From Antedon mediterranea (Eukaryota > Animalia > Echinodermata), in assembly GCF_964355755.1 (NCBI RefSeq), contig NC_092677.1, positions 4,052,101 through 4,116,100 on the forward strand: 64,000 bases of DNA, written 5' to 3'. Shown one piece after another: positions 3,538 to 32,500 of the stretch. How positions within the stretch are numbered: the first letter of the stretch is position 1; each line of letters starts with the position of its first letter. The translations under genes and the position numbers were made by a program. The notes beneath the pieces are model-generated. The model saw nothing but the letters and a program-made list of their open reading frames with translations, had not been told where the DNA came from and made no database searches.

Positions 3538-6500
3538 TTATGCACGGTTCAACTTAATTGGAAAGTTTTCTGTTATCAGGTGATCATCTTGTAATACCAC
3601 AACAACATTTACTTCAAATTCTGAAAAAAAAAAACACAGAAAAATGACAATGGTGTGGCTGGATCTCAATGGAGATAGAAAATAAAATAAGCAAAAAGCT
3701 AAATCAAAACAATAAAGTAAAACAGCAAGAAAAATTAAGAGCTTTCAGGCTACACTGTGCCTTCAGCACATACAGAATGTAATCACCATCAATGCAATGG
3801 CCACAATACTTACCTATTTTGAAATTACTAGTAGCAAGGGTTGGACACGTGAATAATCGCGGAAATACCATGTAGATTGGAATCGTTAAACCACGACAGA
3901 CATCGCCCTCACCAATCTGAATATTTTGAATTTCGGTAGCTAAAAAAAAATATATTGGGATGATTTTTTGATGTATTTAGATATGACATATGTATGACAC
4001 TAGATTTTACATATGACCCTAGATATGACATATGACCCTAGATATGACATATGACCCTAGATATGACATATGACCCTAGATTTGACATATGACCCTAGAT
4101 ATGACATATGACCCTAGATTTGACATCTGACCCTAGATTTGACATATGACCCTATATTTGACATATGACCCTAGATTTGACATATGGCCCTAGATTTGAC
4201 CTATAATCCTAGAAGAGGACCTCTGACCCTAGAACTTACCATCTCTAGCATAACCCTCAGCACATCCACAAGTTTCCACTCTGACCAGTTGAATTTCGAT
4301 GGACTTGATAGGTGCATCGCAGTGGTCAACTACCAACTGACCGGTCAGTGGTTTTGTGATGTTACAGTGAGCTGAATCTAGTCGTCCCTTTACAAGAAAC
4401 TTGGGAAGATTTGATTTCTGTGAAGGAGAAACATTTAGTATGAAAAATAATGTCCTAAAAATGTCATGGAAAGATTTTTTTTAAATAAAAATAAATTTGG
4501 CAATAGAAAAAATAAGTTTTTGGTAAATTTCTGCATACAGGGATTGTATAAGATGTAATGGTGCGTGGCTGCGTCGTAGTGGACGGGACTTCAAAATAGC
4601 AATATCTGATTGGCCAATGTGATGAATCAACATTCTATGGTTTTTTTGCATCTTGAATCACTTTTTGAACTGTAATTACATTGTAGTTAACCCTCTAGTT
4701 AATTATATAATCTCTTTGGTAAATATAATAACTGTCTGATCGCAATCCCTTTACATCTTCAACTTACATCTTTAACATTCTGGAGCGTTTCTGGCTTGAT
4801 TGAAAATGAAACAGGATTTGGAATTATCTTTTCCTTTTGTGGTTTGTACTCGATGATAAACTCAACCGTCTTTGTTAGATCTTTAGCCAGTAGAGGCCGC
4901 TTTATATCCGTCTTGATTAAATACTGCAAATAAATGAAAATCATTAAAAATAATTTGCACCATTTTCATATTTATATATATTTTATTACAAAGTAAAATC
5001 TTTCCATCAATTAAAAGAAAAAAATAATGTCAAAGGTCATACCAGTACCTGTATATTGACAAACACCCCATGGTATGTCTCATGAAGAGCTTTATTTCCT
5101 TTCGGTTTTAATGGAACTTCAAATGGAATTTCAGTCCTTCCTGATGGAAGCTTCCCTGGTTTAGCAACCACTAAACTATAATTCAGTAACGTGATGGGCT
5201 GCAAGTACAAAAAAAAAGACAAACTTAAAATTGGCAACAATTTCGTTTCAATAAGGTTGAGCGTAAATAGCTAATAAATAATACTAATGGTAAAATTATA
5301 CACATATTTTTATAAATACCTTTAGTGAACTGTAAAATGCCTCAAATAGGCCAACACTTTTTGAGCTCAGCTGCAATGTAACTAAGCCTTCTATTAACAG
5401 ATTAATACCCTGGTGCTGTAACTCTCCTTTACTATCGACCACTACAACACCAGCCAATACCTCCTGCAAAAAAAACCCCAAAAACAAAAACATTGAAAAA
5501 AATCGAAAAAAAAAAGCAAATATGCTCTAGAAAAAAACAGTCAAACCCAGACAGACCCTTTTTTAATTAAAAAAAAATGTTTTTATTTTTAGGCTGATAA
5601 ATTAAAAAGACTATAAAAATAAATAAATCTATGCCTAGAGGTTTGTAGTACTACAGTATATATATGGGATTATGGTCGAAGCGGCCGCCAACCAAAGTGG
5701 CCGCTAGTTCAATAACGGTAATTTGTATGGAACGCCGTGTGTGCTTTGATTGTCGTTGTTTTGTAATTTTTGATTGTCATTGTTTTGATCAACAGGTTTT
5801 CTTTTCCTCGGACGTAAATAACAACCTACATATTATTAATATTATGTAATTTATTCTCTTTTTTTACAGATTGAATATGATACGTTCTTTTAAACGAAAT
5901 GGCGAATCGATGATTACTTACTTTAACTGTTCTAAATGATATAGGCCTATATGTTTAATAAAGTCAATAAAATACATTGTGGTGTTTGTATTGTATATTA
6001 ATATAATATATAATAAGCCAATTATTAAGAATGATATATATATTTTTTCAATAAAGTATAACAAAATATATTTATTGTATATTAATATATTAGTAAAGTA
6101 ACTACTGTAAGTAGTACGTGTTCGCAAACATAATTTAATTACAATAACATGATGACATCAATTTATTTATTTAATATCCTTAATTGTTTTATACCTTCAG
6201 ATATATAAATATTGATCAATTTAAAATGAGTTTTAAATACTAAAATAAGATGCGTCTGTACGGTACGGTAATTAATTACGCGAATTTCTGCTAATAACTC
6301 GACTGGCGGCCGGCCAGGAATAGTGCTGTAGAAGGTTGCGTTTTCGTCTTTACGTTGCTTTTATTAAAAACACAAACAATGTATTACAATGGAATAACAC
6401 TTAAATGTATAACACACCCTATTACTAATCAATAAAAACAAGATTCGATAGTACAGTGTAAACTAAACGAGATATAAAAATTCGGCAATACCGTACGTAA

Positions 6501-9500
6501 ATTATTATTGCAATAATGTATAAAGATTCGATGTAAATGAGATATAAAGATTCGGCAATACCGTACGTAAATTATTAATGCAATACCGTATAAAGATTCG
6601 ATAGTATGTAAATGAGATATAAATATTCGGCAATACCGTACGTAAATTATTATTGCAATACTGAAAGATTTGATAGTATGTAAATGAGATATAAATATTC
6701 GGCAATACCGTACGTAAATTATTATTGTAATACTGAAAGATTTGATAGTATGTAAATGAGATATAAATATTCGGCAATACCGTACGTAAATTATTAATGC
6801 AATACTGTATAAATGAGATAAATATTCGGCAATACCGTACGTAAATTATTAAAGCAATACTGTATAAAGATTCGATAGGAGAGTGCTCAAGAAACGTCGG
6901 GTCAGTTCAACGTTATTTTTTATGTATTTAAAAAAAAAGGAGATATAAATAAACTAATAAATAGTACGTAAATGAGACATAAAGGTTCAATAGTATGTGG
7001 ATTATGATGCATAAATGATTAATGATTCGATAGTATATGTAAATATATTTAGTTAGTTAATATTAAAATACAAATAAAAATACATTGGTTTATCGGCAGG
7101 CAAACTTAATTATTATAGAAATATAAAGATTCGATAGTACATGATTTGGCTTATATTTATTGGTTTGACCATTTATTTATTTGGAATTACACCTTTAGAT
7201 CGGTGGCACACTTAGCACAAAGGTGCATCCTTTACAATAACAATATAAAATATAACAATTAACAGAAAAAGTAAAAAGGCAAAAGCAACTATCAACCCTA
7301 TCCTACCACCCCCCCCCCCCCCTCCAATTTACATCGATACATACAGTAGATCATTACTTTACACAATTGAATACAAAACAAACACAGGTTATTACGCAAA
7401 CCCACCAACCCCCTCACCCACCCCTCAATTTACTTAATGTAGCAATGTAGATAACATAGTTATTGAGTCATGGAATTCAGTGAATCATTTCGAAATTTCC
7501 ATGCTTGTTTTAGGTATCTTTTACAAAAACTATCCAAAATATTTTCACACTCTTCATCAATTAAATTATCTGAGTATCCCAAAATATATTTAAGTTTGTC
7601 ATTTTCATGAGAAGTATAAAAAGTATCAAACATATCTTTGCTGCCATTTCTATACATATCCACATATTAATTAAATAATTCCTGATTACGTATATTATTT
7701 AAAGCTGGACAATTAAGGATGAAATGATGGATGTCTTCGTTCGAATTTGTACCGCATAATTTACATTTTTTATTATTATATCAATATTCCAATTTGCAGT
7801 TCTATCATTCAAAGGTAGAGTATTTGAACGAGCTTTAAATTTTAATGCAGCACCTTCAAAATTAGTTTTATCAATTAAGTAGTTTTCAAGTCCATGTTTT
7901 GATTTTTAATGTTTCATAGATGTGGAGACTTGATTTGTAATTCAATTCTCCATTCATCTATCATTATAGAGTTAAGTTTTCTTAAGATTTCAGAAATTGG
8001 AAAGTAGACTTCTTTATAATTTGAGACTAGAGAGTGGTGAAAATATTTTTGGAATAACAATTACACTTCAAGAGAATATCGTTTATACAAGATAGAAACT
8101 TATACCTTAAGTCTTTAAATACACAATTAAGTTGTAGCATTCCAATAAACATAATTTTTGGCCATCGATAGTTTTCCATCTTTATAATTCTATGGAAGTA
8201 TTTCATACGAAGAGCGTTATGGATCTCGTTAATTGGAGACCAACCAAACTCTCCATATAAGGCGGCACAAGGTGTATTTCGAGGTGCTTTTAAGATATAA
8301 CGCGCCATTTGGAGCTGGAGAAGCTCTAGTTTACCATACATACAGCTGTAACTCAACTCGCCATAGGCCATGGCGTTGACAACGACAATCAAAGATTAAA
8401 GCGCACATGGCGTTCCATACAAATGACGATACAGTCGACCTTCTCATTTACACACTTCTCAATTACGAACCTTCTATTTTACGAACGCCGTTCGAACGAT
8501 GACGTCATCAGTACCATTAATAAAACTTTTACGTACCTACTAATTTATTATCTTCTTAATTTATTAAACTACCCCAAAACAATTATTTCATAAATAAAGC
8601 AAAGCTTATTAAAAACGATCCACGATTTATTTCTAGTTTAAAAGTTGTCTATTCCTAGGCCGTTAGCTAGGCCGTTTAGTCTAGGCCTAAGCTAGAGATC
8701 ATCATCCCCACTGCTGGGAGTGCATGGAGAGCACCCTGCACGTGTTTTTGAAAAAAACAAATGTTGATCGCGAACTGCAAAAAGGGCTAGCTACGATGAC
8801 CATACTATCAATTTAGTTTTGTTTGTGGGATCAGGTGCCGTTTTCGGCCACCTCGACTTATATGGACTATACCATTATTATGATAGGGGTGTGGTGTATT
8901 ATGTTTTATGTAGAGAAGGGTGGCTATTGAATGGGAAGACAATACAATTGTTATGTTATGTAACCTACAGTACAAACTACAAGGAACAATACAGAACATC
9001 AAAAACTAGCAATGCATGTACTTTTTATAAGGCATGTTATTATTAGGTACTGTGTGCCAAGATTTTGTAACAATTACTATATATTAACTAAAGATATTTT
9101 AAATAAAACAAATTTTATAGACAAATTTAATGAAGAACCATCTACTAACTGGATAAAGCCATTTAGGAAAAATAATAAACAAGTTGATCATAACGAGTGG
9201 TTTTCAAAGGCCCAAAGCAAAACGAAATTCCATGCAAAACAACTTTAACGGAATATACTATGTATAAAGGAACCAAACCTTGAACAATATTTGTTAGATA
9301 AAACTAATTTTAAGAGTATCAATTTAAAATTTAAAGAAAGATCAAACTCTCTAGATCTTGAGGGTCGTAGACAATCCTGGTCAAATCATAACACAGGATT
9401 ATGTAAGATGTGTACAGTACTAACGAAAAAGAAACAGTAAACCATTTTTTATTTAAATGTCCTTCATTAAACTCTGTTAGACAAATTAAGTGTGTACCGG

Positions 9501-11439
9501 GATAATTTTAATTGTGGACCTTAGGAATTAAAACACCACTTTATGCTAGACAATTTATTCACTGAAAATGAAACATTAGGAAAAATCTTTGATTTTTATT
9601 GTAAAAAATATTTAATGAAAGCATGGGTTACTAGATCTACAATGTTATCAGTTATCGGCCCAATCCTATCGGTAGATAAATCATATATTTTATTTTCTTG
9701 AACTAAACATAAATAAAACGAAAGAAATAAGGATTGATTTTCGAAAAACATAATTGGTCTGACAGTATACATTAATTAAAGTAAAGGAAGTAGAGATTGT
9801 TAACAATTATAAGTATCTGGCAGTAGTGTTTGACTAAAGCTAAATGGGTGGACATGATCGTAGTTAAGAAGTTAAATACAAGGCTGTACTGCTTGAGGAA
9901 ACTCGGTTCTTTGGGGTAAAGCAGCATATTTGTACTATAGAATGTTTATGTTTTACTAATCAGTGATGTTCTATTTGGGCATATTGTATATTGGGCTAGG
10001 AATATCAGTAAGGGAATGTAAGGGGGATAAAGACCGAATTGAGAAGGTGCTGGGTAGAGCGGGGAAAGTAATTGGTTTGTCTAGTATGCAAATGCTTGAC
10101 TCGTTCTACAGCGAACGGCTTTCCGATGTATTCCATGCTATATTGGAAGACACCAATGCACTTGAACATACTGTATAAGTAAATAAAATAAATAAAATGT
10201 ATTTCTACACAGAAACGTTTAAAAACGTGTTTAAAACATTTTTTTAGAAAGAAAAGACCAAACCTAAAAACATACAATGTCAAACGCTGTGTTTTCTGAG
10301 AACAAAATGGTACAGATTCATTGACAAAATTATAATGTTTATTTGTTTTACTGATTACCTAATAATCAGTATGTGATAAATATACTACTGTCATCTTTAT
10401 TAAATGTACTACTGTGTTATCGTTAGGTAAATTATATTTTTTATTTGTAACTCAAATAAAAACTTTCTTTATAAATTATATACTTTTTGTATCTATAAAT
10501 CTGTAAAAATTATATAGAAATAAAGAGCCATAATATACTGCATTAACTTGAAAACTGAAATTAATTCTACGGCATGCAGGGCGTAGTTGTTTTCCCTTTG
10601 TTGCTGAAACAACAAGAAAAACAAAAGAACAAAAGCAGCAGTATTTTAACATCTTTTTATAATGGTATAGTCCATACAAGTCGAGGTGGCCGAAAACGGC
10701 ACCTGATCCTGTTTGTGCATGTGGTTACGATATAAAAAAACACTTGACTCTTATTTATTAACATTTTAAAACTTTGTTGTCAGTCGTCGCGTATCGTAGC
10801 CATTTTTCTGGGAATTCCATTTTACTTGCTGTCAAACACCACACATACATAGTAGCTTAAAAATGTAAATATTTGCGGTCCAGAACGGATTTGATATTAT
10901 TACTTTAGGAACGAGTTCGTAAATTACAGTTTGTGTCAAAATATGCACAATAAAAAGTAAACGATGGAATTTTGGTACAGAGAGTGTGTGTAACGTAACA
11001 AAATGCAGAAATATCAATCTTTTTGGCATTTAAGGTGTTAATTTACATGTTAAATCTAATTCAAATTGTTTTATACTGTATTTTTAATACTGTTTGTTCT
11101 TTATAGTGTACTATATACACAGTAAGTTGTACATAGGGCATTTTGTTTGGACATGTTTTTACCACTGATTTAATAGAGGGCGCTTTTTTCCGAACCTTCC
11201 CATTTACGAACTTTTTCATTTACGAACGCCTCTCTCAGACCAAGGGGTACGTAAATGAGAAGGTCGACTGTATTATTAAACTGGCGGCCGCTTCGACCAC
11301 CATGATACTCCGGCTAGGCCTAGGCCAGGCCCTGGCCTAGCTTGTTTCATGTTTATTATAAATGAGTTTTAAAAACTGAACTTACCCCTTCGTGGTAAAC
11401 TTTATTAACCTTCTTAAGTCGTACATCGAGAGCAGCCAT
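3538..11439 (-). CDS. VPS26C: VPS26C / DSCR3 (retriever complex subunit), 7 coding exons
   Basis: Exons with GT-AG ends and consistent phases: 11439-11386 (MAALDVRLKKVNKVYHEG), 5463-5320 (EVLAGVVVV...GLFEAFYSSLK), 5198-5049 (...HETYHGVFVNIQ), 4923-4768, 4417-4240 (...IQLVRVETCGCAEGYARD), 3939-3814 (ATEIQNIQIGEGDVCRG...FPRLFTCPTL), 3620-3538 (EFEVNVVVVLQDDHLITENFPIKLNRA*). These are diagnostic DSCR3 motifs. Confidence 0.95.
3975..4232. repeat. 19-bp minisatellite (AGATATGACATATGACCCT)n in VPS26C intron 5
   Basis: About a dozen tandem copies visible, degenerating at both ends. Confidence 0.9.
6445..6880. repeat. Tandem repeat of about 72 bp, about 6 copies
   Basis: CGGCAATACCGTACGTAAATTATTA recurs at about 6483, 6553, 6628, 6700, 6772 and 6827. 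Confidence 0.9.
7171..8345 (-). mobile_element. 5'-truncated non-LTR retrotransposon (LINE) 3' end, degraded
   Basis: ORF pieces 8027-8392 (MARYILKAPRNTPCAALYGEFGW...RWPK) and 7460-7663 (FCKRYLKQAWKFR), an intervening CKLC...EDIHHFILNC zinc-knuckle typical of the LINE ORF2 C-terminus, and an (AAAT)n-type tail near 7171. Confidence 0.8.
9057..9720 (+). mobile_element. Degraded LINE 3' fragment related to the 7171-8345 element
   Basis: Frameshifted pieces NLEQYLLDKTNF, GLCKMC...ETVNHFLFKCPSLN and FDFYCKKYLMKAW parallel the minus-strand LINE; A-rich tail near 9710. Confidence 0.65.
9725..10260 (+). mobile_element. Degraded LINE reverse-transcriptase C-terminal fragment of a second family
   Basis: Pieces KEVEIVNNYKYLAVVF and RLYCLRKL, plus ORF 9963-10178 (DKDRIEKVLGRAGKVIG), resemble the RT thumb region of non-LTR elements. 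Confidence 0.6.
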
Positions 11440-12289
11440 GTTATCGTTAATTAAGCTTTAAAAACACAACAAATTGTTTACCTAGTAGTAGGCCTTGTAA
11501 CGCCAAATGAAGTGACATTGCCAAATGAGGTTCGCGTGGCCTGTATCGCACAAGGCTAGGTCACTTAATTTGGCAGCACGTTTCTGGCGAGCTAATCGTG
11601 TTATAAATATTGATATTACTTATTTCCAAATAAACACAAACTGAAAATTATTAACCGGAGTATTTCTAACCTAATAACCTTTACTCATTGTATGAAATTA
11701 AACCATTATAACTGAAACATACGACGAAAATTTACTATTTTAGTGTAAAAAACGTTCATCGAAAAATCTAGAAAACTCGAAATGCATGATGGGAAGCCTA
11801 CCGACCCCTTTCTAAGCAGCTGGAAAAGAAGACTACTCGTTTTAGCGCCAAAGGAAAGTGTCTGAAGTCACGTCTGCATGTTATGCGGACATGGTCTGGG
11901 ACAATTTTCCTTTGGCGCTAAAGCGTTTAGTGTTTGAGTTATGGGACGCTATTGCTGCATTATTTTCTAGTAATATTTTGATTTGACGTTCCTTTCGTCG
12001 GTACATTATTCCCGTTATTATTTTGTTCGGTTTTATGAATTTCTATGTTTATGTTTTCAAATTAAAATGATTATTCGTTGAATATGAATGTATCCTGTTA
12101 TTCTACTGATTATTATATATTTTTTTTTTTTTTAACATTGCTTACTATTTAATCAATTCCGTTTTTTTAAATGTATATGACCAATGTTATTTAGGCCTAT
12201 GTTTTTTATTTATAAGTTCTTTAAAAATATTAGTTACATGATCACATTTTTGTCACTTATTATACCTACAGTATAACACTATATTTCCT

Positions 12290-13365
12290 TTGATGTCTGA
12301 AACATTAAAACATAAATTCGCAATACTATGGCGAACCTAAGTCGCAAATTGTTAGTTGGATATTCGTTATAATTTCATCATCTCATTTGTTACACATGTG
12401 TGTGTGACCTATAATAAATAAATAAGGGATGGTAGGCCTAAAGGTAGTCGAGGGGAAATTCATCAAATTGTTTCATCAAAACAATAACTCATAAGGTCGG
12501 AAACATTTAGATAATGGAACCAAATTTTGCAATAAAGTCTTTATTGCAAAATTTGGTTCCATTATCTAAATATTAAAAGATGAGATATTGCCTTGTTCTC
12601 TTTTGTTATCAATCTTTTCATGTCACGTACCGTAATAGAATGTAACAGTTGAACATGCATATCACAATAAATAAATAATGGCACCTAATTAGTTAAGCAT
12701 TTTCATCAAGTTTTAACAATATTTGATGTCGGAAACATTTCCAATAATAGAGACTAATTTTGCAATATGTTAGATATTTTATTCAGCTGGTACTTTTTAC
12801 CTTGATGTCGGAAACATTTGAACATAAATACGCAATAATGGATCATAATTGTGCAATGAAGTTGTCATCTCATTTGTTCATATGGATGTGAGAAACAGTT
12901 TGGATGGGAATGTGGTGAGCGAAATTCTAAGCAAGCTAAATACATGATACAGTTATTTTAAGGTTGGGAATTACACAACGTGAATTCGCAAATAATTGAA
13001 CGTAATTTTGCAATAAAGTCGTCCAATAAAGTAGTTTGTTCATATTACGATGTGGGAAACAAGTTTGGATGGGAATGGGGTGGTGAGCAAAATTCTAAGT
13101 AAGTATTACTTCGAAGTCGGAAACAACCTTAAATTCGCAATAATGCAATGGAACCTAATTTTGCAATGAAGTCGGTCACCTTGTTTGTTCATACGATGTT
13201 GAAAACATGTTCGGAGGGGTGGACGAAATTCTAGGAAGCTAAATACAGTTACCGTAGTTATAACACTAATTATTTTGAGGTCGGGAATATTAGAATTTAT
13301 ACTTAAATGGAACCTAATTTTGCAATGGAGATTGCATGCGTTATTTTCATCTCGATTGTTCGTTC
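12290..13365. repeat. Diverged tandem repeats inside the TGT...ACA element
   Basis: Recurring blocks GTCGGAAACA, ATGGAACCTAATTTTGCAATGAAGT and CATCTCATTTGTT. Confidence 0.7.
12505..12571. repeat. Perfect palindrome with 33-bp arms and a 1-nt loop
   Basis: ATTTAGATAATGGAACCAAATTTTGCAATAAAG-T-CTTTATTGCAAAATTTGGTTCCATTATCTAAAT. Confidence 0.95.
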
Positions 13366-15302
13366 CATCAATTCATACGTCGTACATAATATGGAACATG
13401 CATGCACTTTTATACTTTGTGGGGTGATGAGAGTGGGACGCTACTGTAAGTTAATATTTTTTATTTATTGACATACAGTAATTTAATTAGCTATATCGAT
13501 GGAATAATAGTAGATTAGGCTTATATATACACATTTGCAGCCTTCACTATTTATAGAATAAATCAGCATTAAATAAGCCAGTGGGTAAATCTTTATGGAA
13601 TTCATTCAAAAGGAAAGCAATATGCTTAACATTGAATGTGAAAGATATAACAATAAAGAAACAAGTATAGAAAAATGGGTAGCTTTAAGAAATACTATTA
13701 TGTTAATATAAATTCTAATTTGCTCGATTATCAGAAAAGGAATTCACTGTGATATGAGTTACAGGTGGTGCTGATCTGATTTAATTCGTTTTATCTTTAA
13801 TTCGTTTTATCTTGTATATAAATACATTGTATAATCCGGGTTGTAAAATTAAAACAAACAATTGAAAATCTCACAAATTCTTTATGTGTAAAATATTTTA
13901 AAACGAAGAACATTAATGAAAATAGGAGGCAATACGGAATTCATAAATGTAAAAATGTTACTGATGAATTGTAACGACATTGGGAATTAACAAATGTGTT
14001 AAATAATATGATTTTATGTAATGACATGAGATAATATATGAATGTGGATAAAAGTGGTGTTTGCGCCACAAAAGAGAAAAAAAAAGCTATCGATGGAATG
14101 GTGGGTACGAAATCCATGATAATTTAGTTACTTATCTAAAATAAATTCGACGGGAACCTGATTTTACAAGAGGACCTCTTATATGAGTTTGTGAGGACTC
14201 CGTTTATAGAGGACATCTTAATATCTATTCTAAAGACTCCTTAATATCAGTTCTAGAATTAACCTTAATTCAATTCAAATAGATCAGTTCTTTTCTAATG
14301 AAGAATCTGGGCAATTTACAATCAAGCAACAACACCACATAATTCTACGTGAATTCTGCTGTACGTGAGCTAGCCTTAATAATACCGCCTGATTACGGTA
14401 TATAGGCCTACAGTATTATGACGACGCATTCTACCGATATTAAAACAAAATGAAAATATTAAATTGGCTTCGTCGAAATGTTGTACCTTGATAGACAGAC
14501 CCCCAAGCAGACAGCCCACATTACTGTACAGACAATCTGCACTGCAGCACAATCTATTGGTTTTAACTGTACACGCGGTGATTCAACTAAAAGCAGTAAA
14601 AACACACAAGGCGTATCATATAATTTGCGGACCATGACCGAAGCACTTCCGCTTTGATCTATTCGACGAAAATCAAAAAAGGATAACTATTTTCTGCTTT
14701 ATATTTAATTTAATGTAATTACTAATAGCTTGATCTAATAACAGGCGTAACAACACAGAATACATATTGTAGTTTAATACTGGCTTAAATATGTTTGTTT
14801 TATATAAACTGTATTTTACAAAATTACAATAGAACTTCATTTTGCAATAGTACCTAATTTGGCGCCTTAGACGCCAAATTAAGTGCGGTACCTCATTTGG
14901 CAGTGGTACCTCATTTGGCGTGACAGGCCTCTCTCAAGTCCTCAGTCTACCGATTGAATCCTATTCTATTCTAAACACAAACTCGAGCGTAAAGAGGCCC
15001 TCTACATATTTGTGGAGAAATGAATGGAGAGAGAAAGGGAAATTAATGAAATTGAATGTACAAATTCTGAAAAATACAAGCTCAACGAACATTATTTTAC
15101 TTCTCAGGTCGGTCTAGCCTAGGTCTATATATTTCTTTTTTCATTTTTATTTTATTTTTGTTTAATGAATGATTGCGAGCCAATTACTATTTATATTTAG
15201 CAAATAGTCTAGTAAGACACCAATGGCATCCCATACATATTGGTTATTTCACGCTCGAGTTTTTCACGCTCGTCAAAAAAACCGACAAAATTCAACCTGC
15301 AA

Positions 15303-15798
15303 ATGATGCAAAACCTTAGCTTCGGAAAGGTAGCGATTGGTAGAATCTTATATAATAAGTTGTCGAGTACATTTGCTTTCAGATGTGGCATTTCTAGTTT
15401 TGATCCAAAGATTCTAGATACAATCGCCTGTCCATTAAGTAAAGAAAAGCTAAGGTAGGTCGGATGAAAAATGTGTCAGGGGGTTGTGAAAGCTATCGCA
15501 TGGCTGGTGTCTCTCTGGTGGTGGGTTAGATAAATTCAGTAAGAGGCCTAGGATATTGGAAGTTATGAAACGCCAAATACGCCTTTAAGCACGGTATAAA
15601 ACAATTTATATAAAATAAAAGCATTTAAAAATATCACATCTTTTTATTTCCAGATATGATCCTGTCAATGATGAGCTGATTAATGATAAACTTGGTGTCT
15701 CGTATAAAATTACCAATGGAATCCCAAACTTAATTCCGAGTGATGGAAAAGTTATCAAGGAAAAAGAAAATTCAAATAATAATATGAAAGAAACATAA
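15303..15798 (+). CDS. PYURF: PYURF / PreY (mitochondrial Trm112-like methyltransferase chaperone), 2 exons, 98 aa
   Basis: Exon 1 15303-15454 (MMQNLSFGKVAIGRILYNKLSSTFAFRCGISSFDPKILDTIACPLSKEKL, AG|GTAGGT) plus exon 2 15654-15798 (CAG|, RYDPVNDELINDKLGVSYKITNGIPNLIPSDGKVIKEKENSNNNMKET*). Matches the PreY pattern FD..L..LVCPLSK..LRY....ELIN..LG..Y.I..GIPNMIP. The basic, acid-free N-terminus resembles a mitochondrial presequence. Confidence 0.92.
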
Positions 15799-15830
15799 CA
15801 ATACATTCTATCGGAACAAATTTGTTTTAG

Positions 15831-15931
15831 GTACGTGTATAGGCCAGCCAACTATATCCGGATTATTTTACATCCATATATTCCTAAACAACATGATTTT
15901 ATTTAATTAACATGTTTATTATTTTCTATAG
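15831..15931 (+). other. Predicted 101-bp intron in the PYURF-MVK intercistronic spacer
   Basis: Donor TAG|GTACGT 32 nt after the PYURF stop; pyrimidine-rich acceptor TTTATTATTTTCTATAG| 15 nt before the MVK ATG. Confidence 0.7.
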
Positions 15932-15946
15932 GGAAATGAAGATTTA

Positions 15947-17110
15947 ATGATGGAGGAAAAGACAGAAGAGATTTGCGTAAGCTCCCCAGGTAAAGCGATC
16001 TTGTTCGGGGAGCATGCTGTGGTGTATGACAAGCCAGCATTAGCAGCAAGTTTAGATATGTGTACATTTGTACGCGCTAAGATTAGCAAAGGCAACGATG
16101 TCCATCTTAAACTCGTAGATTTTAACAAGACATTCAAATGGCCAATCAAACAAATAACAGAGACGTTGTATCAACCCTCAGGAGGTGGTGATGTGAAGAA
16201 TGTACCAGATTTGTCGGTGGAAGACATCGAGTGTTTATGGTCAAAAGTTAAATCCTCGTTTCCATCTGATTATGATAATACAGCCGTATTAGTATTTCTT
16301 TATCTATATTCATCGATAGTGTGTTCAAATGAACCTCTCCCATTGGACGTTGAAGTTGCATCGTGTCTTCCTATTGGTGCAGGTCTTGGATCGTCTGCGT
16401 CGTATACAACGTGTCTTTCTGCAACTATGCTAACCGCCGTAAAAGCAATCAAAGAATTTAGTAATACCGATCTTGACCTGGTGAACCGATGGGCGTTTTC
16501 AGCCGAACGGATCCTACACGGGAACCCATCCGGCGTTGATAATTCAGTCAGTGTGTTTGGCGGGTTGATTAAATACCAATCTGGTGTAATAACTCGCGTA
16601 AAATGTCCAACTACTTTAGAAATTATTCTTATTAACACTAAAGTTCAACGAGAAACGAAAAAATTAGTTGAGAAAGTGCGAAAACGAAACATAGAATGGC
16701 CAAAGGTTATTCAACCTGTATTGGATGGTATTGGTGCTATTATTGAATCAGTGGAGAATATCTTTCAGGATGTTTCTCGCATTAATATCGATAAATTAAA
16801 TGAACTTGTCCATATAAACCAGGGACTGTTATGTGCACTCGGCGTATCGCATCCTAAACTCAATGAAATTTGTCAGCTAGCTGCTGAATGTGGTTTTAGT
16901 GCTAAACTCACAGGTGCTGGGGGTGGAGGAGGTGCTTTTTGCTTTGTACCCACTAGCTGTTCAAAGTCAGAAGATTTTATGAGCAAGTTAGAGGGTAGGG
17001 GATTTAGTTGCTGGAAAACAAAGGTTGGAGGACCAGGTGTTTTACTTCATCAAAACATTGATGAATTTAGAAAAACTAGAAATAACATACCAGAACATTT
17101 TGCCCAGTAA
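15947..17110 (+). CDS. MVK: Mevalonate kinase (GHMP kinase family), single coding exon, 387 aa
   Basis: Uninterrupted ORF with SPGKAILFGEHAVVY, LPIGAGLGSSA (ATP-binding motif), HGNPSGVDN (catalytic Asp), NQGLLCALGVSHP and KLTGAGGGG. Confidence 0.97.
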   Translation: MMEEKTEEICVSSPGKAILFGEHAVVYDKPALAASLDMCTFVRAKISKGNDVHLKLVDFNKTFKWPIKQITETLYQPSGGGDVKNVPDLSVEDIECLWSKVKSSFPSDYDNTAVLVFLYLYSSIVCSNEPLPLDVEVASCLPIGAGLGSSASYTTCLSATMLTAVKAIKEFSNTDLDLVNRWAFSAERILHGNPSGVDNSVSVFGGLIKYQSGVITRVKCPTTLEIILINTKVQRETKKLVEKVRKRNIEWPKVIQPVLDGIGAIIESVENIFQDVSRINIDKLNELVHINQGLLCALGVSHPKLNEICQLAAECGFSAKLTGAGGGGGAFCFVPTSCSKSEDFMSKLEGRGFSCWKTKVGGPGVLLHQNIDEFRKTRNNIPEHFAQ

Positions 17111-17118
17111 CAAACCTG

Positions 17119-17124
17119 AATAAA
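17119..17124 (+). promoter_or_regulatory. Candidate poly(A) signal for the (PYURF-)MVK transcript
   Basis: AATAAA 8 nt after the MVK stop; a more distal site is possible. Confidence 0.4.
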
Positions 17125-17589
17125 TCAATTAACAAATTTTCTGAACAAATTGTCCACTTTTCTTCCTATGCCTAAAAGAGCACCATTTACATATTCGTAA
17201 AATCTTGTACGTGTATGTAGATTAACAAAATTAACGTATAGATATAGTCTAAAGTAATTTTATTACCATCGGTATAAAAAAAACCATTATTTACATACAA
17301 TACTTTGACACAGGGATGTGGAAATATTCTTTTGGGGAATTAATTTGATTTAGACATAATTTCAATTGTATATCTAAGTTATAAGTGACTGTTTGGTGTG
17401 AAAAGTGATAGCTAAATGAAATATAAGATATAGTATTAGTGGTAGACCTCTCTTAAATTTCTAGGATTTTCTTCCTATTTGTGGTCGGTTATTTGTAAAC
17501 AATAGCGAGTTCAATAACAAAATGTAACTTTGCTGGGCAACGCTGTGTACTTCAGAAGTATCAAAATAAATTTGTCAATTTGTTTTTTC

Positions 17590-20500
17590 TCAAAAATGTG
17601 TTGTTTGCCGTTCAACATCCATTATATCATCAAGAATCTGAAAAAAGAAAAAAAAAACCCAAATCATCAAAGACTGCTTGAAAACCTCTATTCTATAAAC
17701 TAATCAATATTTTCTTTAGCAAAAACAGCTGGTGGCCTTTTGTGTTTGTGGAAATAAAAAAAAAAAAACTCCTATCTTTTGCAAACGTTCTGAACGAGTT
17801 TTATTTACCTGGTCTACGGTTGTACCAATACGTCTTGCCAGCTCGTTTCGTTCAACGACGCTGAGGTAGTTGAAATGCCACAGTAAATCACCATCCACAA
17901 TATTCTTACTTGGGTTAATCAGCATTTTTTCATTGTACTTTATATGTCTGTAACAATACAACGTGCCATTGTAAACTCTATTTTTTCAATAGCATTATAT
18001 ATATATATATATATATTAGGCCTATATATTTTATTATTTAAAGATTTGGTGCAATGCTTATTCTATCAAACTTCACTGTATATGCCCTAACAACAGAATG
18101 ACCAAGGCCTCTAATAATAGGATGCCAAGTTCCGGAGATCAAAGGGTTTATCTGTGGCTGCGACATGATCAGTTCCACGCCCCTTAACAGACACTGCACG
18201 GCGGAGATTAGTACAGTACTGTATTTGTCGCAGCCAGCCAGACACAAGATCAAAGGACTGTTAATTTGGCACTTATGGGAGAAGCATGTTTTTGTTTGTT
18301 GCTAATAACTATCATAATCATTTATTTAGTATGGTTTTTCTTTTTGGAATTTCTATGTCCGGTTTACCTATATGCCTTTGGGTTCAGTCCAGCTACGTGG
18401 GGATAACTCGTCGTCAACACGTTCTGCAACATCAACATTCGGCGGTACGTTTTCTCAGATACAGGCACAAGAAAACCCATGGCTCCATCCAGTGTAGCTG
18501 TGAACAATATTACATTTCTATACATTAATATTTCAATAATAACTCTGAAGAAAATTTTATTAATTCTTATGGATGTTTTCACAGTATATGGATGTTTACC
18601 ACACATTACAATTTTTTACAATGTCACCCACATCTGTAATACAATAAAAATTATAAATATTCTTATAATAAGTTTAATGAAACGACCAATGATTTGCAGA
18701 AAAGGTACGGTATGAATTGCTTCCTTACCAAAATATGTTACATGTCTTCTCTCTGATGGGCCTGACATAAGTTTATCACTAGCTGGGTCCTGTCTCTTAC
18801 AGCGCACTCGAACAAAAGTGTTGACCCGACCTCCGATGTTGATGTCGCATCTGCGGAGAAGACGGGTGCCACCATAGCTCTCTGGTGCTACAGTGCAGAT
18901 AAATGTAATTATTAAAGCTTTAATGTATCTTAAATTACATTTGAAAAAGTGGAAAAGAGCGAATTCAGATTATCCTTGGGATTTGGTCTATTCTCAATCT
19001 TGGTTATTGCCTACAGAATCTCCTATGATATGTAAATACACCACTGTACTATATGTCCATGGTTTTGCCAAAAAAGGTCTTTAATTAGGAACACTTTCTG
19101 ATTACAAAGACTTAAGCCCTGTCTAAACTATCAAACTTTATATGATGTGGCCATATATGGACATGATGGTGTCATATCACTACCTTTTTTTAGTATATCA
19201 CTACCATATTTGGGCACATCACACTTTTTTGATAGTGTGGACAGAGCTTAAGAAGACAATACATACCTTCTGGTTGGTAATGATAGATAATGAGATTCTT
19301 GTCAGCATCAGAAACTACAAAGAGAAAATATTGTTACTTATACTGCAGTTACTGCAGTAATTAAATTTTGGTTACTGTGTTTATACAAACATTTAAAAAG
19401 CTTAATATATGAGCATGTAGATGTCCTACTAAATATGTAAGCTCTGTCTACACCAACTTTGTGACAAACAAATTTGCCCATATATGGACATGATGTCATA
19501 TCACTACCATATTTGGTAGTTTGATAGTGTAGACAGAGCTTAAGAGTTTAATATTTAGAAGTAAAATAAATGTAAGCTTACCTAGGAATGTTAATTGTTT
19601 ATCATCAATCATAAACTCGGCACTGTATATTCTTAAAGGTTTCGTGTCCTGAAAATGATTAAAATTAATAATATTGAAAAAATAACAAAATTGATAATTA
19701 ATCTTAATTAGTAACTGTGAAGTAGTTATTATTTAACAAGTTATAACAAAAATATGCATGTTATAATATTTATTAATTTATTTTGAATTTCATATGCATC
19801 CAACAGTGAGCCAAAACTCGCCAATTACAGGATGGATAAACTATTTTATAATTTATCGTGGTTATAAACTAAGTCTCGTTTGAGGCTTAGGGAGGGGAGT
19901 TGAAAGAGACGCGAGTTACAACCCTGGGACTAGGTCAGGATTGAACCCTGGACCTTTGAATTGGAAGGCAAGCACGATAACCACCAAGCTACAGCTCCAC
20001 TACATAAATGTCTACAACCTACCCTGCTAACAAGAGCAAGTGTTCTGTCTTCTTCTTGATACTGAAGGAGGAACAGACTATTTGTGATGTCAGCAATGAT
20101 GACAAAGTTCTTAATGCTAAGAGCCTTGTGTATGTATACCTGGGTGTCGATAAAGGCTAGGCCTATCAAGTCGTTATCTTTGAATGTCCATAGGTAAATC
20201 TATACAAGAACCAGAAAAAAACTTATATAAAGCTTAGTCTACACAAAATGTTATGCGACAAAAATGTGATGTGCCCATCTTAAACCTTCCAATGGATTGA
20301 TTTTAAATAAGAAAGTTGTCTGTGTGGGTCAAAAATTCTGCAATTTACAAGTAGTAATAATGTACTTTCTAGATTAAAGTTAGAATTTATTCATTCTTAC
20401 CTTCTGTCCAATGCAGGATAGGAGGAAGCCACAGACATCGCATATACAACTCACAGGACCTTTTTGCTCTTTCTCGTACAGTGTCTATGAATATAGATAA

Positions 20501-26500: not shown

Positions 26501-29500
26501 GGTCTTTGTTTCACCCTCTACACCTTCAGTTTCCTTAGAGCAAAATAATAAATGATCATTATCAAACTAGTTGGACAAAAAAGTGTTATATATAGAAATA
26601 GAAAGTGCTTGTTTAATGTTATATTTTGAAAGTTAAACAGAATACAATGTGTACCTTAATCGCTTCTTTCTGACCAATCACTGTCCACATATCCAAGCAA
26701 CCAGGAAGTTCAAAGGTTGTGACAACTTGTGGTCTTATAGTACGCTGAAATTTAAATGTACACAGTGTTACATACAAGAAAGTGTTATAAAACAAAGATG
26801 GTATAGTCATGTAGGGCTGATATAAAAGCATACAGCTTAAAGTTATTATAAACATTTTCTCATAACACCCACAGAAATATTAAAGTTTAGCATGAATGAT
26901 AAAAAATAACTCACCCTTAAAACAGATAGAGCTCCATTCTTACCATAGCCTGAACAAATCACCAATTCGATATCTGGGTCTGGGTTATTTTGAAACTAAG
27001 AAAACAGGGGGTATTACTATTATGAAGTATTATGAAGTATGATTATTATCTATTATTATACCTATTCAGAAAATAATTTATATATATATATAATTAATAA
27101 AAGGGAGACAGACAGATATACAATTCTTGCTAAGCATTCAATCGCTGTAACAGAATAACTGAAGAAGGTGTCCCCTTAATAGGTCCACTGAATAGGGGTT
27201 GGATGTATTTTTAAACATGTTGCTCCTTATCCTCATGGGAAAGTGTCCCCTTAATAGGGGTGTCCCCTGAATAGAGGAGGGATTCTACTGTAATACAATA
27301 AATTCTTACCTCCTCAGAAAGAAATGCTGGCTCACCCATAACCATACTTCCACATGGCCCTATATTAAGCAGACTGTCTGAAACCTAATGAATAATCATT
27401 ATCCATTACAATAATTATAAAAACCTAATCGGAATGTCATAATGATAAAAGCATGTTTGGAACCTAATGAATATCCATTACTCATTATAATAATAATAAT
27501 TATAAAAGCCTAAATGAGACGTTTTATCAACTCATCATAATAATAAAAGACTGTGTGGAATCTAATGAATATTCATAACTTATAAATATTTTATAAGCTT
27601 GATTGCAATGTAAGCAATGCTATGGTTTTACAGTAACGTATGGAGTGCTAAAAAGTAACAAACGGTAGCATACCTCAAATGTATAGCTTTTAACTTGCGT
27701 GCCAGTTTTCTGTGCTTGCTTGCCATACACTTCAAGTTCATCAGGATCTTCAAGTAGGTTCACGTCAGATGCTGAAGTGAAAAGAAAAAAAAATGTACTT
27801 ACCAAATAAGGAACAGTGAGGAGGAGGCGAGTCCCGTGTTCTCTGTTAGGAGCTCATTGTACTAAGCCTCGGCATTATGTGGTAGGGTGGCCAGTTCCCT
27901 TCCATGCCGCCTTTTTTCTCCCTAGTATTTTCAACCAGGTACTCATTTACAGCTGAGTGGACTGGGAGTTGTCGGGAATTGAACCCGGGTCTATCTGTAT
28001 GACAGTCAAGTGTCCTAACCACTCGGCTATCCAACTCCTAGGAACAGTACTTACCAAATAAGGAACAGTACTTACCAAATAAGGAACAGTACTTACCAAA
28101 TAAGGAACAGTACTTACCAAATAAGGAACAGTACTTACCAAATAAGGAACAGTACTTACCAAATAAGGAACAGTACTTACCAAATAAGGAACAGTACTTA
28201 CCAAATAAGGAACAGTACTTACCAAATAAGGAACAGTACTTACCAAATAAGGAACAGTACTTACCAAATAAGGAACAGTACTTACCAAATAAGGGACAGT
28301 ACTTACCAAATAAGGGACAGTACTTACCAAATAAGGAACAGTACTTACCAAATAAGGAACAGTACTTACCAAATAAGGAACAGTACTTACCAAATAAGGA
28401 ACAGTACTTACCAAATAAGGAACAGTACTTACCAAATAAGGAACAGTACTTACCAAATAAGGAACAGTACTTACCAAATAAGGAACAGTACTTACCAAAT
28501 AAGGAACAGTACTTACCAAATAAGGAACAGTACTTACCAAATAAGGAACAGTACTTACCAAATAAGGAACAGTACTTACCAAATAAGGAACAGTACTTAC
28601 CAAATAAGGAACAGTACTTACCAAATAAGGAACAGTACTTACCAAATAAGGAACAGTACTTACCAAATAAGGAACAGTACTTACCAAATAAGGGACATTA
28701 CTTACCAAATAAGGGACATTACTTACCAAATAAGGGACATTACTTACCAAATAAGGAACAGTACTTACCAAATAAGGAACAGTACTTACCAAATAAGGAA
28801 CAGTACTTACCAAATAAGGAACAGTACTTACCAAATAAGGGACAGTACTTACCAAATAAGGGACAGTACTTACCAAATAAGGGACAGTACTTACCAAATA
28901 AGGGACAGTACTTACCAAATAAGGGACAGTACTTACCAAATAAGGAACAGTACTTACCAAATAAGGAACAGTACTTACCAAATAAGGAACAGTACTTACC
29001 AAATAAGGAACAGTACTTACCAAATAAGGAACAGTACTTACCAAATAAGGAACAGTACTTACCAAATAAGGAACAGTACTTACCAAATAAGGAACAGTAC
29101 TTACCAAATAAGGAACAGTACTTACCAAATAAGGAACAGTACTTACCAAATAAGGAACAGTACTTACCAAATAAGGAACAGTACTTACCAAATAAAAAAC
29201 AGTACTTACCAAATAAAAAACAGTACTTACCAAATAAGGAAGAGTACTTACCAAATAAGGAACAGTACTTACCAAATAAGGAACAGTACTTACCAAATAA
29301 GGAACAGTACTTACCAAATAAGGAACAGTACTTACCAAATAAGGAACAGTACTTACCAAATAAGGAACAGTACTTACCAAATAAGGAACAGTACTTACCA
29401 AATAAGGAACAGTACTTACCAAATAAGGAACAGTACTTACCAAATAAGGAACAGTACTTACCAAATAAGGAACAGTACTTACCAAATAAGGAACAGTACT

Positions 29501-32500
29501 TACCAAATAAGGAACAGTACTTACCAAATAAGGAACAGTACTTACCAAATAAGGAACAGTACTTACCAAATAAGGAACAGTACTTACCAAATAAGGAACA
29601 GTACTTACCAAATAAGGAACAGTACTTACCAAATAAGGAACAGTACTTACCAAATAAGGAACAGTACTTACCAAATAAGGAACAGTACTTACCAAATAAG
29701 GAACAGTACTTACCAAATAAGGAACAGTACTTACCAAATAAGGAACAGTACTTACCAAATAAGGAACAGTACTTACCAAATAAGGAACAGTACTTACCAA
29801 ATAAGGAACAGTACTTACCAAATAAGGAACAGTACTTACCAAATAAGGAACAGTACTTACCAAATAAGGAACAGTACTTACCAAATAAGGAACAGTACTT
29901 ACCAAATAAGGAACAGTACTTACCAAATAAGGAACAGTACTTACCAAATAAGGAACAGTACTTACCAAATAAGGAACAGTACTTACCAAATAAGGAACAG
30001 TACTTACCAAATAAGGAACAGTACTTACCAAATAAGGAACAGTACTTACCAAATAAGGAACAGTACTTACCAAATAAGGAACAGTACTTACCAAATAAGG
30101 AACAGTACTTACCAAATAAGGAACAGTACTTACCAAATAAGGAACAGTACTTACCAAATAAGGAACAGTACTTACCAAATAAGGAACAGTACTTACCAAA
30201 TAAGGAACAGTACTTACCAAATAAGGAACAGTACTTACCAAATAAGGAACAGTACTTACCAAATAAGGAACAGTACTTACCAAATAAGGAACAGTACTTA
30301 CCAAATAAGGGACATTACTTACCAAATAAGGAACAGTACTTACCAAATAAGGAACAGTACTTACCAAATAAGGGACAGTACTTACCAAATAAGGAATAGT
30401 ACTTACCAAATAAGGGACACTACTTACCAAATAAGGGACAGTACTTACCAAATAAGGAACAGTACTTACCAAATAAGGGACAGTACTTACCAAATAAGGA
30501 ACAGTACTTACCAAATAAGGGACACTACTTACAAAATAAGGGACAGTACTTACCAATCCAGTCGCTTGCATCTTCTCCTCTCACTTTCTTAGTTGGTGGT
30601 TCTCCCTGAAAAAAAAATAAGATGGTACTTCAGAAATAAAGAAGATAAAGGCATAACAACATAAGAGAATTTTTACAAATATTTGATACTAACCTCTTTT
30701 CTTTCTTTCTTGACAGCATCTAAAAAACAACAAAACCATGTAATATAAATAATCACATATAAACATTATTATTACCACAACATACAATAAACAACTCTAA
30801 CTGACCAAAACATAATTATCTAATTACGGCCTACCTTCTGTTTCAGCTTTTTCTGTATATTTAAGAAGTAGAGAATTTCCCAGTCTGGATCCAAGAAATA
30901 AATAGCCCTCTTCCATTTTACATATCTAAAAAAGAATACGTTATTTTATTTTAGGTATTTGTTCTTACCGAGATGGAAAATTTAGCAACCAATATAGTGT
31001 GGATTATTGAATTGTTTTTAAAGGTCATTTTCAAAATTGACGAAGGTGGCTTGCTAGTCCTTTTAACCGAAGTGGGAGAGTGCATGGTCATCTTCTGCAC
31101 TAAAAACCGCAGCTGAACAAAGGGTAAAAAAAACCCCGAGCCATGGTCAAATATTAATTTAAAAAGTAGGTATAATTAGCTGAGTTAAACGATGTTACAG
31201 GATGATACTTAAATTGTTTGGAATATACAACATAAATACATATACTGGAATTTGGCCAGCTTTCAACCAGTCATTCATAATAAAATTACTAATAACGAAA
31301 ATCTACCTGGTGGTGGTCACTATTGACTGGATTTTAGACATGACTAATTTCAACTAAATTTATATACATGTTACTCACACAAGTCGTCAGTACACTAGCC
31401 GCCGCCTTGTAAAAATGAAACCCTCTAACACTCCTCATGCCATCAATCATCAAAGTTAAAACATAGCTGAAAATATTAAAATACAACTCTCCAAACAAAA
31501 TTGTTCATATTAAAAGAGTAGCTGTAGGTCTAAAAATATGGAATGTGGAGTCCTATTATTATATCTTGCATATCATCAATCAAAAACAATTTTTTTTCAC
31601 CCAAATTTCATAAGCTGTTGCTGGAACATTCCTCTCTCATTACCATTTATTTAAAAAAAATGTAATGATGAATTAAAATTTAGTTATAGATATACAGTCA
31701 ACTCTCCCAATACCGGACATCTTTGGGCTGGCAAAATATGTCAGTTTTTTTCAAAAAGTCTTGTATATAAAAAGTGTTTTAATTGTAAAAAGGAATTTTG
31801 AACCTTTTGGACTTTTTTTTTTGGACGGTTTTCTGAGAGTCCGGTATTGGGAGAGTTGACTGCATACAAAAAAGCCCTGTAGCACTACTTTTTTCATAAA
31901 AAATTGGCTTATTTTCATGTTAGTTCTATTTCACTGCAGTCAAAAAATTAGTAGAGTTACTATCAATGCCATCGCAAAGTCTTATAATAGAAATTTTAAA
32001 CATGTTTATTAAAAATATTATATATCTTACATTTCTCCTCCTTTTAGTGACAGCACTAACTTATCAAAACTAATGAATGTAATTTGGCAGCAGTCCAATG
32101 ATATCGTTACTCCACTTTGTTTTTCTAAAAATTGTAAAATATTTGAAATTTAATAAAACAAAACGATATTATTAATATTAATTTTTTAAATGATCATACA
32201 AAATAAAAAATATTTATTAATACATTACAACTATCCAAAGTGTCTCCTAAATAGGGGTTGGCCTTAGTGTTAAAATATATAATGCTTCTCATTCATGTCC
32301 TCTGAAAAGAGGGTGTCCCCAAAGAACCGGTATATAATGCTTCTCATTCATGTCCCCTGAATAGAGGGTGTCCCCAAAGAACCGGTATATAATGCTTCTG
32401 ATTCATGTCCCCTGAATAGAAGGTGTCCCCAAAGAACCGGTATATAATGCTTCTCATTCATATCCCCTGAATAGAGGGTGTCCCCAAAGAACCGGTATAT

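What the first reader, a model, noticed from the sequence alone, without database searches (positions are those of the whole stretch)
15303..17124. Apparent PYURF(PreY)-mevalonate kinase bicistronic transcript
Seen: an intact two-exon PYURF ORF stops at 15798 and an intact MVK ORF starts 148 bp later on the same strand. The spacer has no AATAAA or ATTAAA, leaves little room for a promoter, and is mostly a canonical GT-AG intron (15831-15931) whose donor lies on the PYURF side, leaving a 47-nt spliced spacer. Known: human PYURF is the upstream ORF of a bicistronic mRNA with PIGY and acts as a chaperone of the SAM-dependent methyltransferases COQ5 and NDUFAF5; MVK feeds the isoprenoid tail of coenzyme Q. 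Inference: here PYURF hosts a different downstream cistron, giving an operon-like unit that couples CoQ head-group methylation to tail supply. I do not recall this pairing being described but cannot check.
Basis: partly seen in the sequence, partly recalled or inferred. Interest (0 to 1): 0.88.

Follow-up and report, generated by a model that had tools for sequence, protein, structure and literature searches.

The report
Mevalonate kinase spliced behind PYURF
In what is likely a feather star (crinoid), the intron-free mevalonate kinase gene is spliced onto the last exon of the small mitochondrial-protein gene PYURF, so the two likely share one messenger RNA; this is a new pairing of a known kind, probably born when a gene copy landed behind a host gene, and any role in coordinating coenzyme Q synthesis is untested.

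Summary
The anatomy is real: an intact two-exon PYURF (98 aa, ancestral intron), then an intact single-exon mevalonate kinase (387 aa) 148 bp downstream. One assembled contig from one probably-RNA run covers all of PYURF exon 2, skips the 101-nt GT-AG spacer intron and runs through MVK; three DNA-like runs keep the intron. MVK is therefore transcribed through PYURF exon 2. A full bicistronic mRNA was not seen. That run has no cover on PYURF exon 1 and shows a second junction, from beside the divergent VPS26C-like gene into exon 2, that skips PYURF's start (an MVK-only isoform). Contigs also merge overlapping neighbours. The missing poly(A) hexamer means little (P about 0.6 by chance). Best reading: a retroposed MVK captured by the PYURF transcription unit, matching the published 'gene symbiosis' model. 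The pairing is absent in the other animals checked. Both partners have known, unrelated bicistronic partners elsewhere (PYURF-PIGY in humans, BolA-Mvk in insects), which argues against a CoQ operon. No paper or earlier scan note on this pairing was found.

The parts
15303..15454 (+). PYURF (PreY) coding exon 1: N-terminal peptide like a mitochondrial targeting signal plus first half of the Trm112p domain
   Evidence: Pfam Trm112p positions 1-17/40, E 0.18 alone; first 33 aa: 4 K/R, 0 D/E; not covered in run X1
15455..15653 (+). PYURF intron 1 (199 nt, GT-AG, phase 2 in the Arg codon), ancestral position
   Evidence: same donor and acceptor position in 5 of 5 other animal loci showing both ends (L004, L005, L008, L010, L011); acceptor only in L012
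15654..15830 (+). PYURF exon 2 (coding to the stop at 15796-15798, then 32 nt); also serves as a leader exon of MVK transcripts
   Evidence: X1 contig 1 starts exactly at 15654
15831..15931 (+). 101-nt GT-AG intron in the inter-ORF spacer
   Evidence: spliced out in X1, unspliced in X2, X3, X5; chance control 1 of 330
15936..15947 (+). 3-codon uORF (MKI*) whose TAA overlaps the first MVK ATG (TAATG); in the X5 allele it reads MKIY* and overlaps the second ATG (TGATG)
15947..17110 (+). Mevalonate kinase ORF, 387 aa, no coding intron; second ATG (15950) has the stronger context and survives in the X5 allele
17119..17124 (+). AATAAA, first candidate poly(A) signal of the unit
   Evidence: use not shown
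11455..11484 (+). 3' end of an alternative, non-coding first exon overlapping the VPS26C-like 5' UTR, joined in X1 to 15654 (GT at 11485, weak donor)
   Evidence: (loose end); inferred from a 30-letter loose-end consensus and a length match
3538..11439 (-). VPS26C-like gene (7 coding exons, 296 aa), head-to-head with PYURF; ATGs 427 bp apart in the insertion-free allele
   Evidence: (Pfam Vps26); the subfamily name VPS26C is recalled, not tested
11496..14925 (.). Polymorphic 3430-bp insertion with TGT...ACA inverted ends and a 5-bp GGCCT duplication in the shared promoter region
   Evidence: (empty site in X2, X3, X5); no Pfam hit in the 4 ORFs inside it that one search scanned

Best explanation
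The intron-free MVK exon is spliced onto PYURF exon 2, and it is likely a retroposed copy that now borrows PYURF's promoter region, so that transcripts from PYURF exon 1 would be bicistronic (PYURF then MVK) while transcripts from an upstream first exon would carry MVK only. Shown: both ORFs are intact, the exon 2-MVK junction is in an RNA-type assembly, and a second junction skips exon 1. Inferred: (a) the origin by retroposition into the PYURF 3' UTR, with a new splice acceptor 15 nt before the ATG, probably on the crinoid stem; (b) exon-1 transcripts run on into MVK, because exon 2 has no other continuation in the assembly; (c) PYURF is made by normal scanning, and its stop, 32 nt before the last junction, would escape junction-triggered decay (50-55-nt rule, recalled), which an MVK with coding introns would not allow; (d) MVK is made at lower yield by reinitiation or leaky scanning ending at the stop-start uORF, or mainly from the exon-1-skipping isoform. 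The link is most likely a shared housekeeping promoter ('gene symbiosis'), not a selected CoQ operon.
For:: X1 contig 1 covers 15654-15827 and 15929-17600, skips 101 nt GT..AG, and starts exactly at the exon-2 acceptor; X2, X3 and X5 are unspliced. X1 contigs 1 and 2 overlap by 30 letters at the acceptor without being merged, which suggests a second incoming path, such as exon 1, that was not displayed (inference). Exon 1 is intact and conserved: 46 of 86 local alignments reach into it and the intron position is ancestral. MVK has no coding intron, whereas human MVK has 11 exons, 10 coding (PMC11590122 passage) and the two neighbouring genes here are intron-rich. The two crinoid MVKs form a clade on a long stem (1.2 changes per column, SH-aLRT 100, quick tree only). 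The linkage is absent elsewhere: 8 of 8 species listed in both searches give different longest-contig lengths (3 of the 8 are single-member clusters on both sides); no MVK in 13 of 13 loci; sea-urchin PYURF is a 1100-nt mRNA model, too short for an MVK CDS (PMC13303939 supplement 10). Published model: 50% of downstream ORFs in human bicistrons are intronless, and origin is by retroposition (PMC13303939 section 13). Weak hint: the window's MVK is in NCBI/UniRef as an exact match, but no crinoid-named or window-encoded PYURF appeared or in the top 120 of 905 hits, as expected if annotators merged both into one model.
Against: No read or contig joins exon 1 to exon 2; X1 depth is 0 over 14900-15627 (the tool warns that a hole proves nothing). 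The only 5' junction seen skips exon 1. All RNA evidence is one run, labelled RNA by guess, held as contigs; these merge overlapping transcripts (contig 2 matches the antisense VPS26C-like mRNA in length, and contig 1 runs 4094 letters past 17600, towards the convergent CPSF1 gene). The bicistronic leader holds 11 upstream AUGs and the alternative leader 9, and PYURF is not depleted of out-of-frame AUGs (7 seen, 5.3 expected), so efficient leaky scanning is unlikely. AATACA plus a T/GT-rich stretch directly after the PYURF stop could end a PYURF-only mRNA. Intron loss in place is not excluded, and the arrangement in a second crinoid could not be read.
Confidence: 0.6

Rival explanations
1. Overlapping but essentially monocistronic genes: PYURF mRNA ends at a variant poly(A) site just after its stop or in the spacer intron, and MVK is transcribed from the upstream first exon or from a start inside PYURF exon 2, using exon 2 only as 5' UTR.
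For: The exon-1-skipping junction is the only 5' junction seen. AATACA with a downstream T/GT-rich stretch follows the stop. Many upstream AUGs make a long leader costly. Contigs would merge overlapping mRNAs.
Against: The alternative donor is weak (4 of 9 consensus matches against 6-8 for the eight other donors scored; X1's own intron-side letters are unknown), so it is probably minor. The spacer donor is strong (7 of 9) and lies 32 nt after the stop, where it should compete with 3'-end formation (inference). X1 shows no cover across the spacer intron.
Confidence: 0.25
2. One reading: a selected operon-like unit that co-regulates CoQ head-group methylation (PYURF with COQ3/COQ5) and isoprenoid tail supply (MVK).
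For: [quoted passage not shown] MVK supplies isoprenoids (established pathway knowledge). The junction is real.
Against: The pairing is lineage-restricted. PYURF's human passenger is a GPI-pathway subunit and insect Mvk's upstream partner is a BolA-like protein. STREMI-SLC35A4 lacks functional interdependence. MVK feeds all isoprenoid branches, not only CoQ. An isoform that drops PYURF would uncouple the two.
Confidence: 0.1
3. MVK here is a redundant, decaying retrocopy carried passively in PYURF's 3' UTR, with the working MVK elsewhere in the genome.
For: Variants among the laid runs are 14 nonsynonymous to 5 synonymous (pN/pS 0.87; X1 alone 11 to 0); long branch; poor translation context.
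Against: A 387-codon open frame with the GHMP motifs and the residues matching rat K13, E193 and D204 kept (their catalytic role is recalled). A 59%-identical intact relative exists in Anneissia, and no second crinoid-named MVK is among the top 120 of 3155 hits. X5 alone gives pN/pS 0.31.
Confidence: 0.05

Closest known systems
Human PYURF-PIGY bicistronic mRNA (NM_032906 / NM_001042616; PMC13303939)
   Same: Same upstream gene with two coding exons (142-nt second coding part in human, 145 here), followed closely by an intronless ORF (98-nt gap computed from the supplement's coordinates).
   Different: The passenger is a 387-aa enzyme, not the 71-aa PIGY; the spacer holds an intron; an exon-1-skipping isoform exists. 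PYURF and PIGY are 5.6 Mb apart in amphioxus, so the two captures are independent.
Insect BolA-like uORF / mevalonate kinase dicistron (Drosophila CG33672-CG33671; PMC2276209)
   Same: MVK as the downstream ORF behind a small conserved protein (86 aa), conserved to honeybee ESTs.
   Different: Different, unrelated upstream protein and lineage.
'Gene symbiosis' bicistrons such as STREMI-SLC35A4 (PMC13303939)
   Same: Small mitochondrial protein upstream, intronless larger CDS downstream, both genes older than their linkage.
   Different: There both translation and the bicistronic mRNA are shown by Ribo-seq and long reads; here neither is. Described for vertebrates.

Membership tests
PYURF/PreY (Trm112p-like, PF03966) | Trm112p-like domain homologous to named PreY proteins | tested here: met
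   Complementary halves 1-17 and 19-40 of the Pfam model, each below cut-off alone; 84 relatives at E<=0.001, with PreY-named members in Branchiostoma and Dreissena
PYURF/PreY (Trm112p-like, PF03966) | N-terminal mitochondrial targeting peptide | tested here: inconclusive
   Composition fits (4 K/R, 0 D/E in 33 aa); no predictor or import assay run
PYURF/PreY (Trm112p-like, PF03966) | Binds COQ3/COQ5/NDUFAF5 | not tested
   Human data only (PMC12489013 passage)
Mevalonate kinase (GHMP) | GHMP N and C domains, PxGxGLGSS and GAGGGG motifs, residues matching rat K13/E193/D204 | tested here: met
   (E 1e-73 to 1kvk; K16, E187, D198); catalytic numbering recalled
Mevalonate kinase (GHMP) | Enzyme activity | not testable with these tools
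   Needs assay
Retroposition-born bicistronic locus (gene symbiosis) | Downstream CDS intronless while homologues have introns | tested here: met
   Single-exon ORF; human MVK has 10 coding exons; echinoderm outgroup structure not seen
Retroposition-born bicistronic locus (gene symbiosis) | Both genes older than, and unlinked outside, the pairing | tested here: met
   8 of 8 shared species differ in contig length; 0 of 13 loci
Retroposition-born bicistronic locus (gene symbiosis) | Both complete ORFs on one mature mRNA, as the main form | tested here: inconclusive
   Exon 2-MVK junction seen; exon 1 not covered; exon-1-skipping junction seen
Retroposition-born bicistronic locus (gene symbiosis) | Both ORFs translated | not testable with these tools
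   No ribosome profiling or proteomics
Retroposition-born bicistronic locus (gene symbiosis) | Both ORFs under purifying selection | tested here: inconclusive
   Both intact and conserved at protein level, but MVK pN/pS is 0.87 among runs
PYURF-PIGY locus | PIGY ORF directly downstream of PYURF | tested here: not met
   MVK follows instead; no PIG-Y Pfam hit in the 39 window frames scanned
Operon resolved by spliced-leader trans-splicing | Downstream cistron receives a trans-spliced leader at its acceptor | tested here: inconclusive
   The acceptor at 15931 is joined in cis to exon 2 and shows no loose end in X1; contigs can drop short leaders

The most novel reading that the evidence does not exclude
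PYURF has independently captured a second retroposed passenger, and in crinoids the choice between two first exons at a bidirectional promoter switches between a PYURF+MVK bicistronic mRNA and an MVK-only mRNA, tying mitochondrial CoQ and complex I assembly to isoprenoid supply in a regulated way.
Probability: 0.12. Interest if true: 0.75.

Novelty: new member of a known kind. Interest (0 to 1): 0.45.

Why it matters
If the bicistronic mRNA is confirmed, this is a double convergence: PYURF has become a host cistron twice (PIGY in humans, MVK here) and MVK a passenger twice (behind BolA in insects, behind PYURF here). It would extend the retroposition-born bicistron model from vertebrates to echinoderms and give a natural test of whether such pairs are picked for function or arise because some short genes make good hosts. 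It would also show how PYURF can be lost from gene annotations as '5' UTR'. A CoQ operon would matter much more, but nothing here supports it beyond pathway names.

Tried and rejected
No whole genome is held, so a second MVK or PIGY elsewhere could not be sought. No holder is on record as RNA; X1 is a guess that its splice junctions support. X1's lack of cover on exon 1 and the flat contig depths cannot show absence or level. In-frame PYURF-MVK fusion: exon 2 to MVK is out of frame and the MVK frame is closed upstream; three GT sites in exon 2 would fuse in frame, but they match the donor consensus poorly and have no RNA support, so rejected. Absence of AATAAA as evidence: rejected (P0 about 0.6). 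Structured RNA or IRES-like element: exon 2 folds no better than shuffles (z 0.85); no Rfam hit in 11000-18000. A search with exon 2 for longer or fused proteins found none (weak). The Atlas gave no answer. Rensvold 2022 is not held. Earlier scan notes: nothing relevant. The careful tree did not finish; only the quick tree is cited. In one search variant 16865 was listed under X1 by mistake; one search corrected it and the distinct count is unchanged. No complex was folded: the proteins are expected in different compartments and no binding is claimed. Of the 13 loci, L013 is probably prokaryotic (62% GC), several are near-duplicates, and only 6 hold 1.9 kb or more downstream of PYURF.

Full report
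Anatomy. The window holds, on the + strand, a 98-aa ORF in two exons (15303-15454, 15654-15798) and a 387-aa single-exon ORF (15947-17110), 148 nt apart; a 101-nt GT-AG intron (15831-15931) fills most of the spacer. The first is PYURF/PreY. The two exons match complementary halves of Pfam Trm112p, each below cut-off alone. Exon 2 finds 84 relatives, with PreY-named members among the 10 clusters looked up. 46 of 86 local alignments reach into exon 1, and the intron is at the same codon position in 5 of 5 other animal loci showing both ends. The second is mevalonate kinase with its motifs intact. Its closest relative is from the crinoid Anneissia japonica at 59%, so the organism is likely a crinoid. 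A VPS26-family gene (VPS26C-like; name recalled) lies head-to-head upstream and CPSF1 lies tail-to-tail downstream.

RNA evidence. Five runs hold the stretch, none on record as RNA; 4 of the 5 were laid on 14900-17600. X2, X3 and X5 (one sample) read through both introns. X1 (another study, RNA by guess) gives one 5936-nt contig that begins exactly at the exon-2 acceptor, covers 15654-15827, skips 101 nt GT..AG and continues through MVK. X1 has no cover on exon 1. A second X1 contig (1028 nt) ends in the first 30 letters of exon 2, and its loose end matches window 11455-11484 with one mismatch; the next genomic letters are GT. Its 998 loose letters equal 45 nt of VPS26C-like 5' UTR plus 891 nt of CDS plus 62 nt ending in a tandem repeat. 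I read it as the antisense VPS26C-like mRNA merged with a + strand molecule spliced from 11484 to 15654. That molecule skips PYURF's start codon and would encode MVK only. Its donor is weak (4 of 9). That the two contigs overlap at the acceptor but are not merged suggests another incoming path, such as exon 1, but this is inference. Contigs merge overlapping transcripts at both ends of this locus, so continuity does not prove one molecule; only the junction words do.

Chance controls. A donor/acceptor pair this good occurs in 1 of 330 control windows (thresholds fitted after the fact). The lack of AATAAA/ATTAAA in 148 nt is expected 56-60% of the time, and AATACA with a T/GT-rich stretch follows the PYURF stop. 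MVK lies behind 11 upstream AUGs in the bicistronic leader and 9 in the alternative one; PYURF is not AUG-depleted (7 against 5.3). The last uORF overlaps the MVK start as stop-start in both the window and X5 alleles. The PYURF stop lies 32 nt before the last junction, inside the distance that escapes junction-triggered decay (rule recalled); the geometry of the spacer makes this likely anyway.

Comparison. Eight species appear by name in both the MVK list (top 120 of 3155) and the PYURF list (top 120 of 905); all 8 differ in longest-contig length (compared by eye; 3 are single-member clusters on both sides). None of 13 PYURF-like loci from metagenome contigs holds MVK, and 0 of 22 downstream same-strand ORFs hit Pfam. 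In the supplement of PMC13303939, sea-urchin PYURF is a 1100-nt model and amphioxus PYURF and PIGY are 5.6 Mb apart. The two crinoid MVKs share a long stem in a quick tree of 27 stored homologues picked. The arrangement in Anneissia could not be read.

Mechanism. Most likely (0.6) a processed MVK copy landed in the PYURF 3' UTR, gained an acceptor 15 nt before its ATG and uses the promoter region shared with the VPS26C-like gene. Exon-1 transcripts would be bicistronic and upstream-exon transcripts MVK-only. Rivals: overlapping monocistronic genes (0.25), a selected CoQ unit (0.1), a decaying copy (0.05).

Literature. PMC13303939 (abstract, passages, section 13 whole, rows of supplementary files 2, 4, 5, 10 and 11) lists PYURF-PIGY among human bicistrons and proposes retroposition-born 'gene symbiosis'; its homologue table had no hit for mevalonate, Anneissia or Antedon. 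PMC2276209 (passages) and PMC13240139 (passages) give the insect BolA-Mvk dicistron. PMC12489013 (passages) gives PYURF's partners. PMC11590122 (passages) gives human MVK exon numbers. Searches for the pairing: PYURF + mevalonate kinase, 0 papers; PreY + mevalonate kinase + polycistronic, 0; PIG-Y + PreY + bicistronic, 0; PYURF + bicistronic, 4, of which 1 was read; crinoid + polycistronic, 3, none relevant by title. Searches were otherwise seen as listings only. The library lacks most subscription journals, bioRxiv supplements are closed, and figure 7D of PMC13303939 could not be seen.

Verdict. This is a new member of a known kind, with a notable double convergence of host and passenger. Interest 0.45.

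Noticed in passing
window 11496-14925: Polymorphic 3430-bp insertion with TGT...ACA inverted ends and a 5-bp GGCCT duplication, 57 bp upstream of the VPS26C-like ATG and 378 bp upstream of the PYURF ATG; it splits the head-to-head promoter region, and runs X2, X3, X5 show the empty site. Ends resemble Ginger-type DNA transposons (recalled).
   Followed up: partly
window 15947-17110: MVK variants among runs are mostly amino-acid-changing (14 to 5; X1 11 to 0); two X1 residues (C329, P336) match Anneissia where the window differs. Relaxed or diversifying selection, or X1 is a sister lineage.
   Followed up: partly
window 15947: The X5 allele loses the first MVK ATG; the second ATG remains and still overlaps the uORF stop.
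   Followed up: yes
window 17119-17264: The first poly(A) hexamers of MVK (+, 17119) and CPSF1 (-, 17259) would leave a gap, yet X1's contig is continuous across it, so one gene reads past its first signal and the 3' ends overlap.
   Followed up: no
window 8429-11273: Nested inverted repeats (8429-8451 with 11251-11273; 8828-8878 with 10659-10709) in the first intron of the VPS26C-like gene, probably further mobile elements, near ORF fragments at 7463-8395 and 9249-10358 that look like decayed retroelement pieces (no Pfam hit).
   Followed up: no
window 28040-30556 and 32276-46416: Large homogeneous tandem arrays: 21-bp unit x120 and 55-bp unit x257, both 98% matches.
   Followed up: no
L001:3248-4687, L002:1648-3069, L003:1671-3041 (minus strand): In other animal loci PYURF lies tail-to-tail with a single long bHLH ORF; in L002 and L006 it begins MPRSFLVK, a SNAG-like motif (motif name recalled).
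   Followed up: partly
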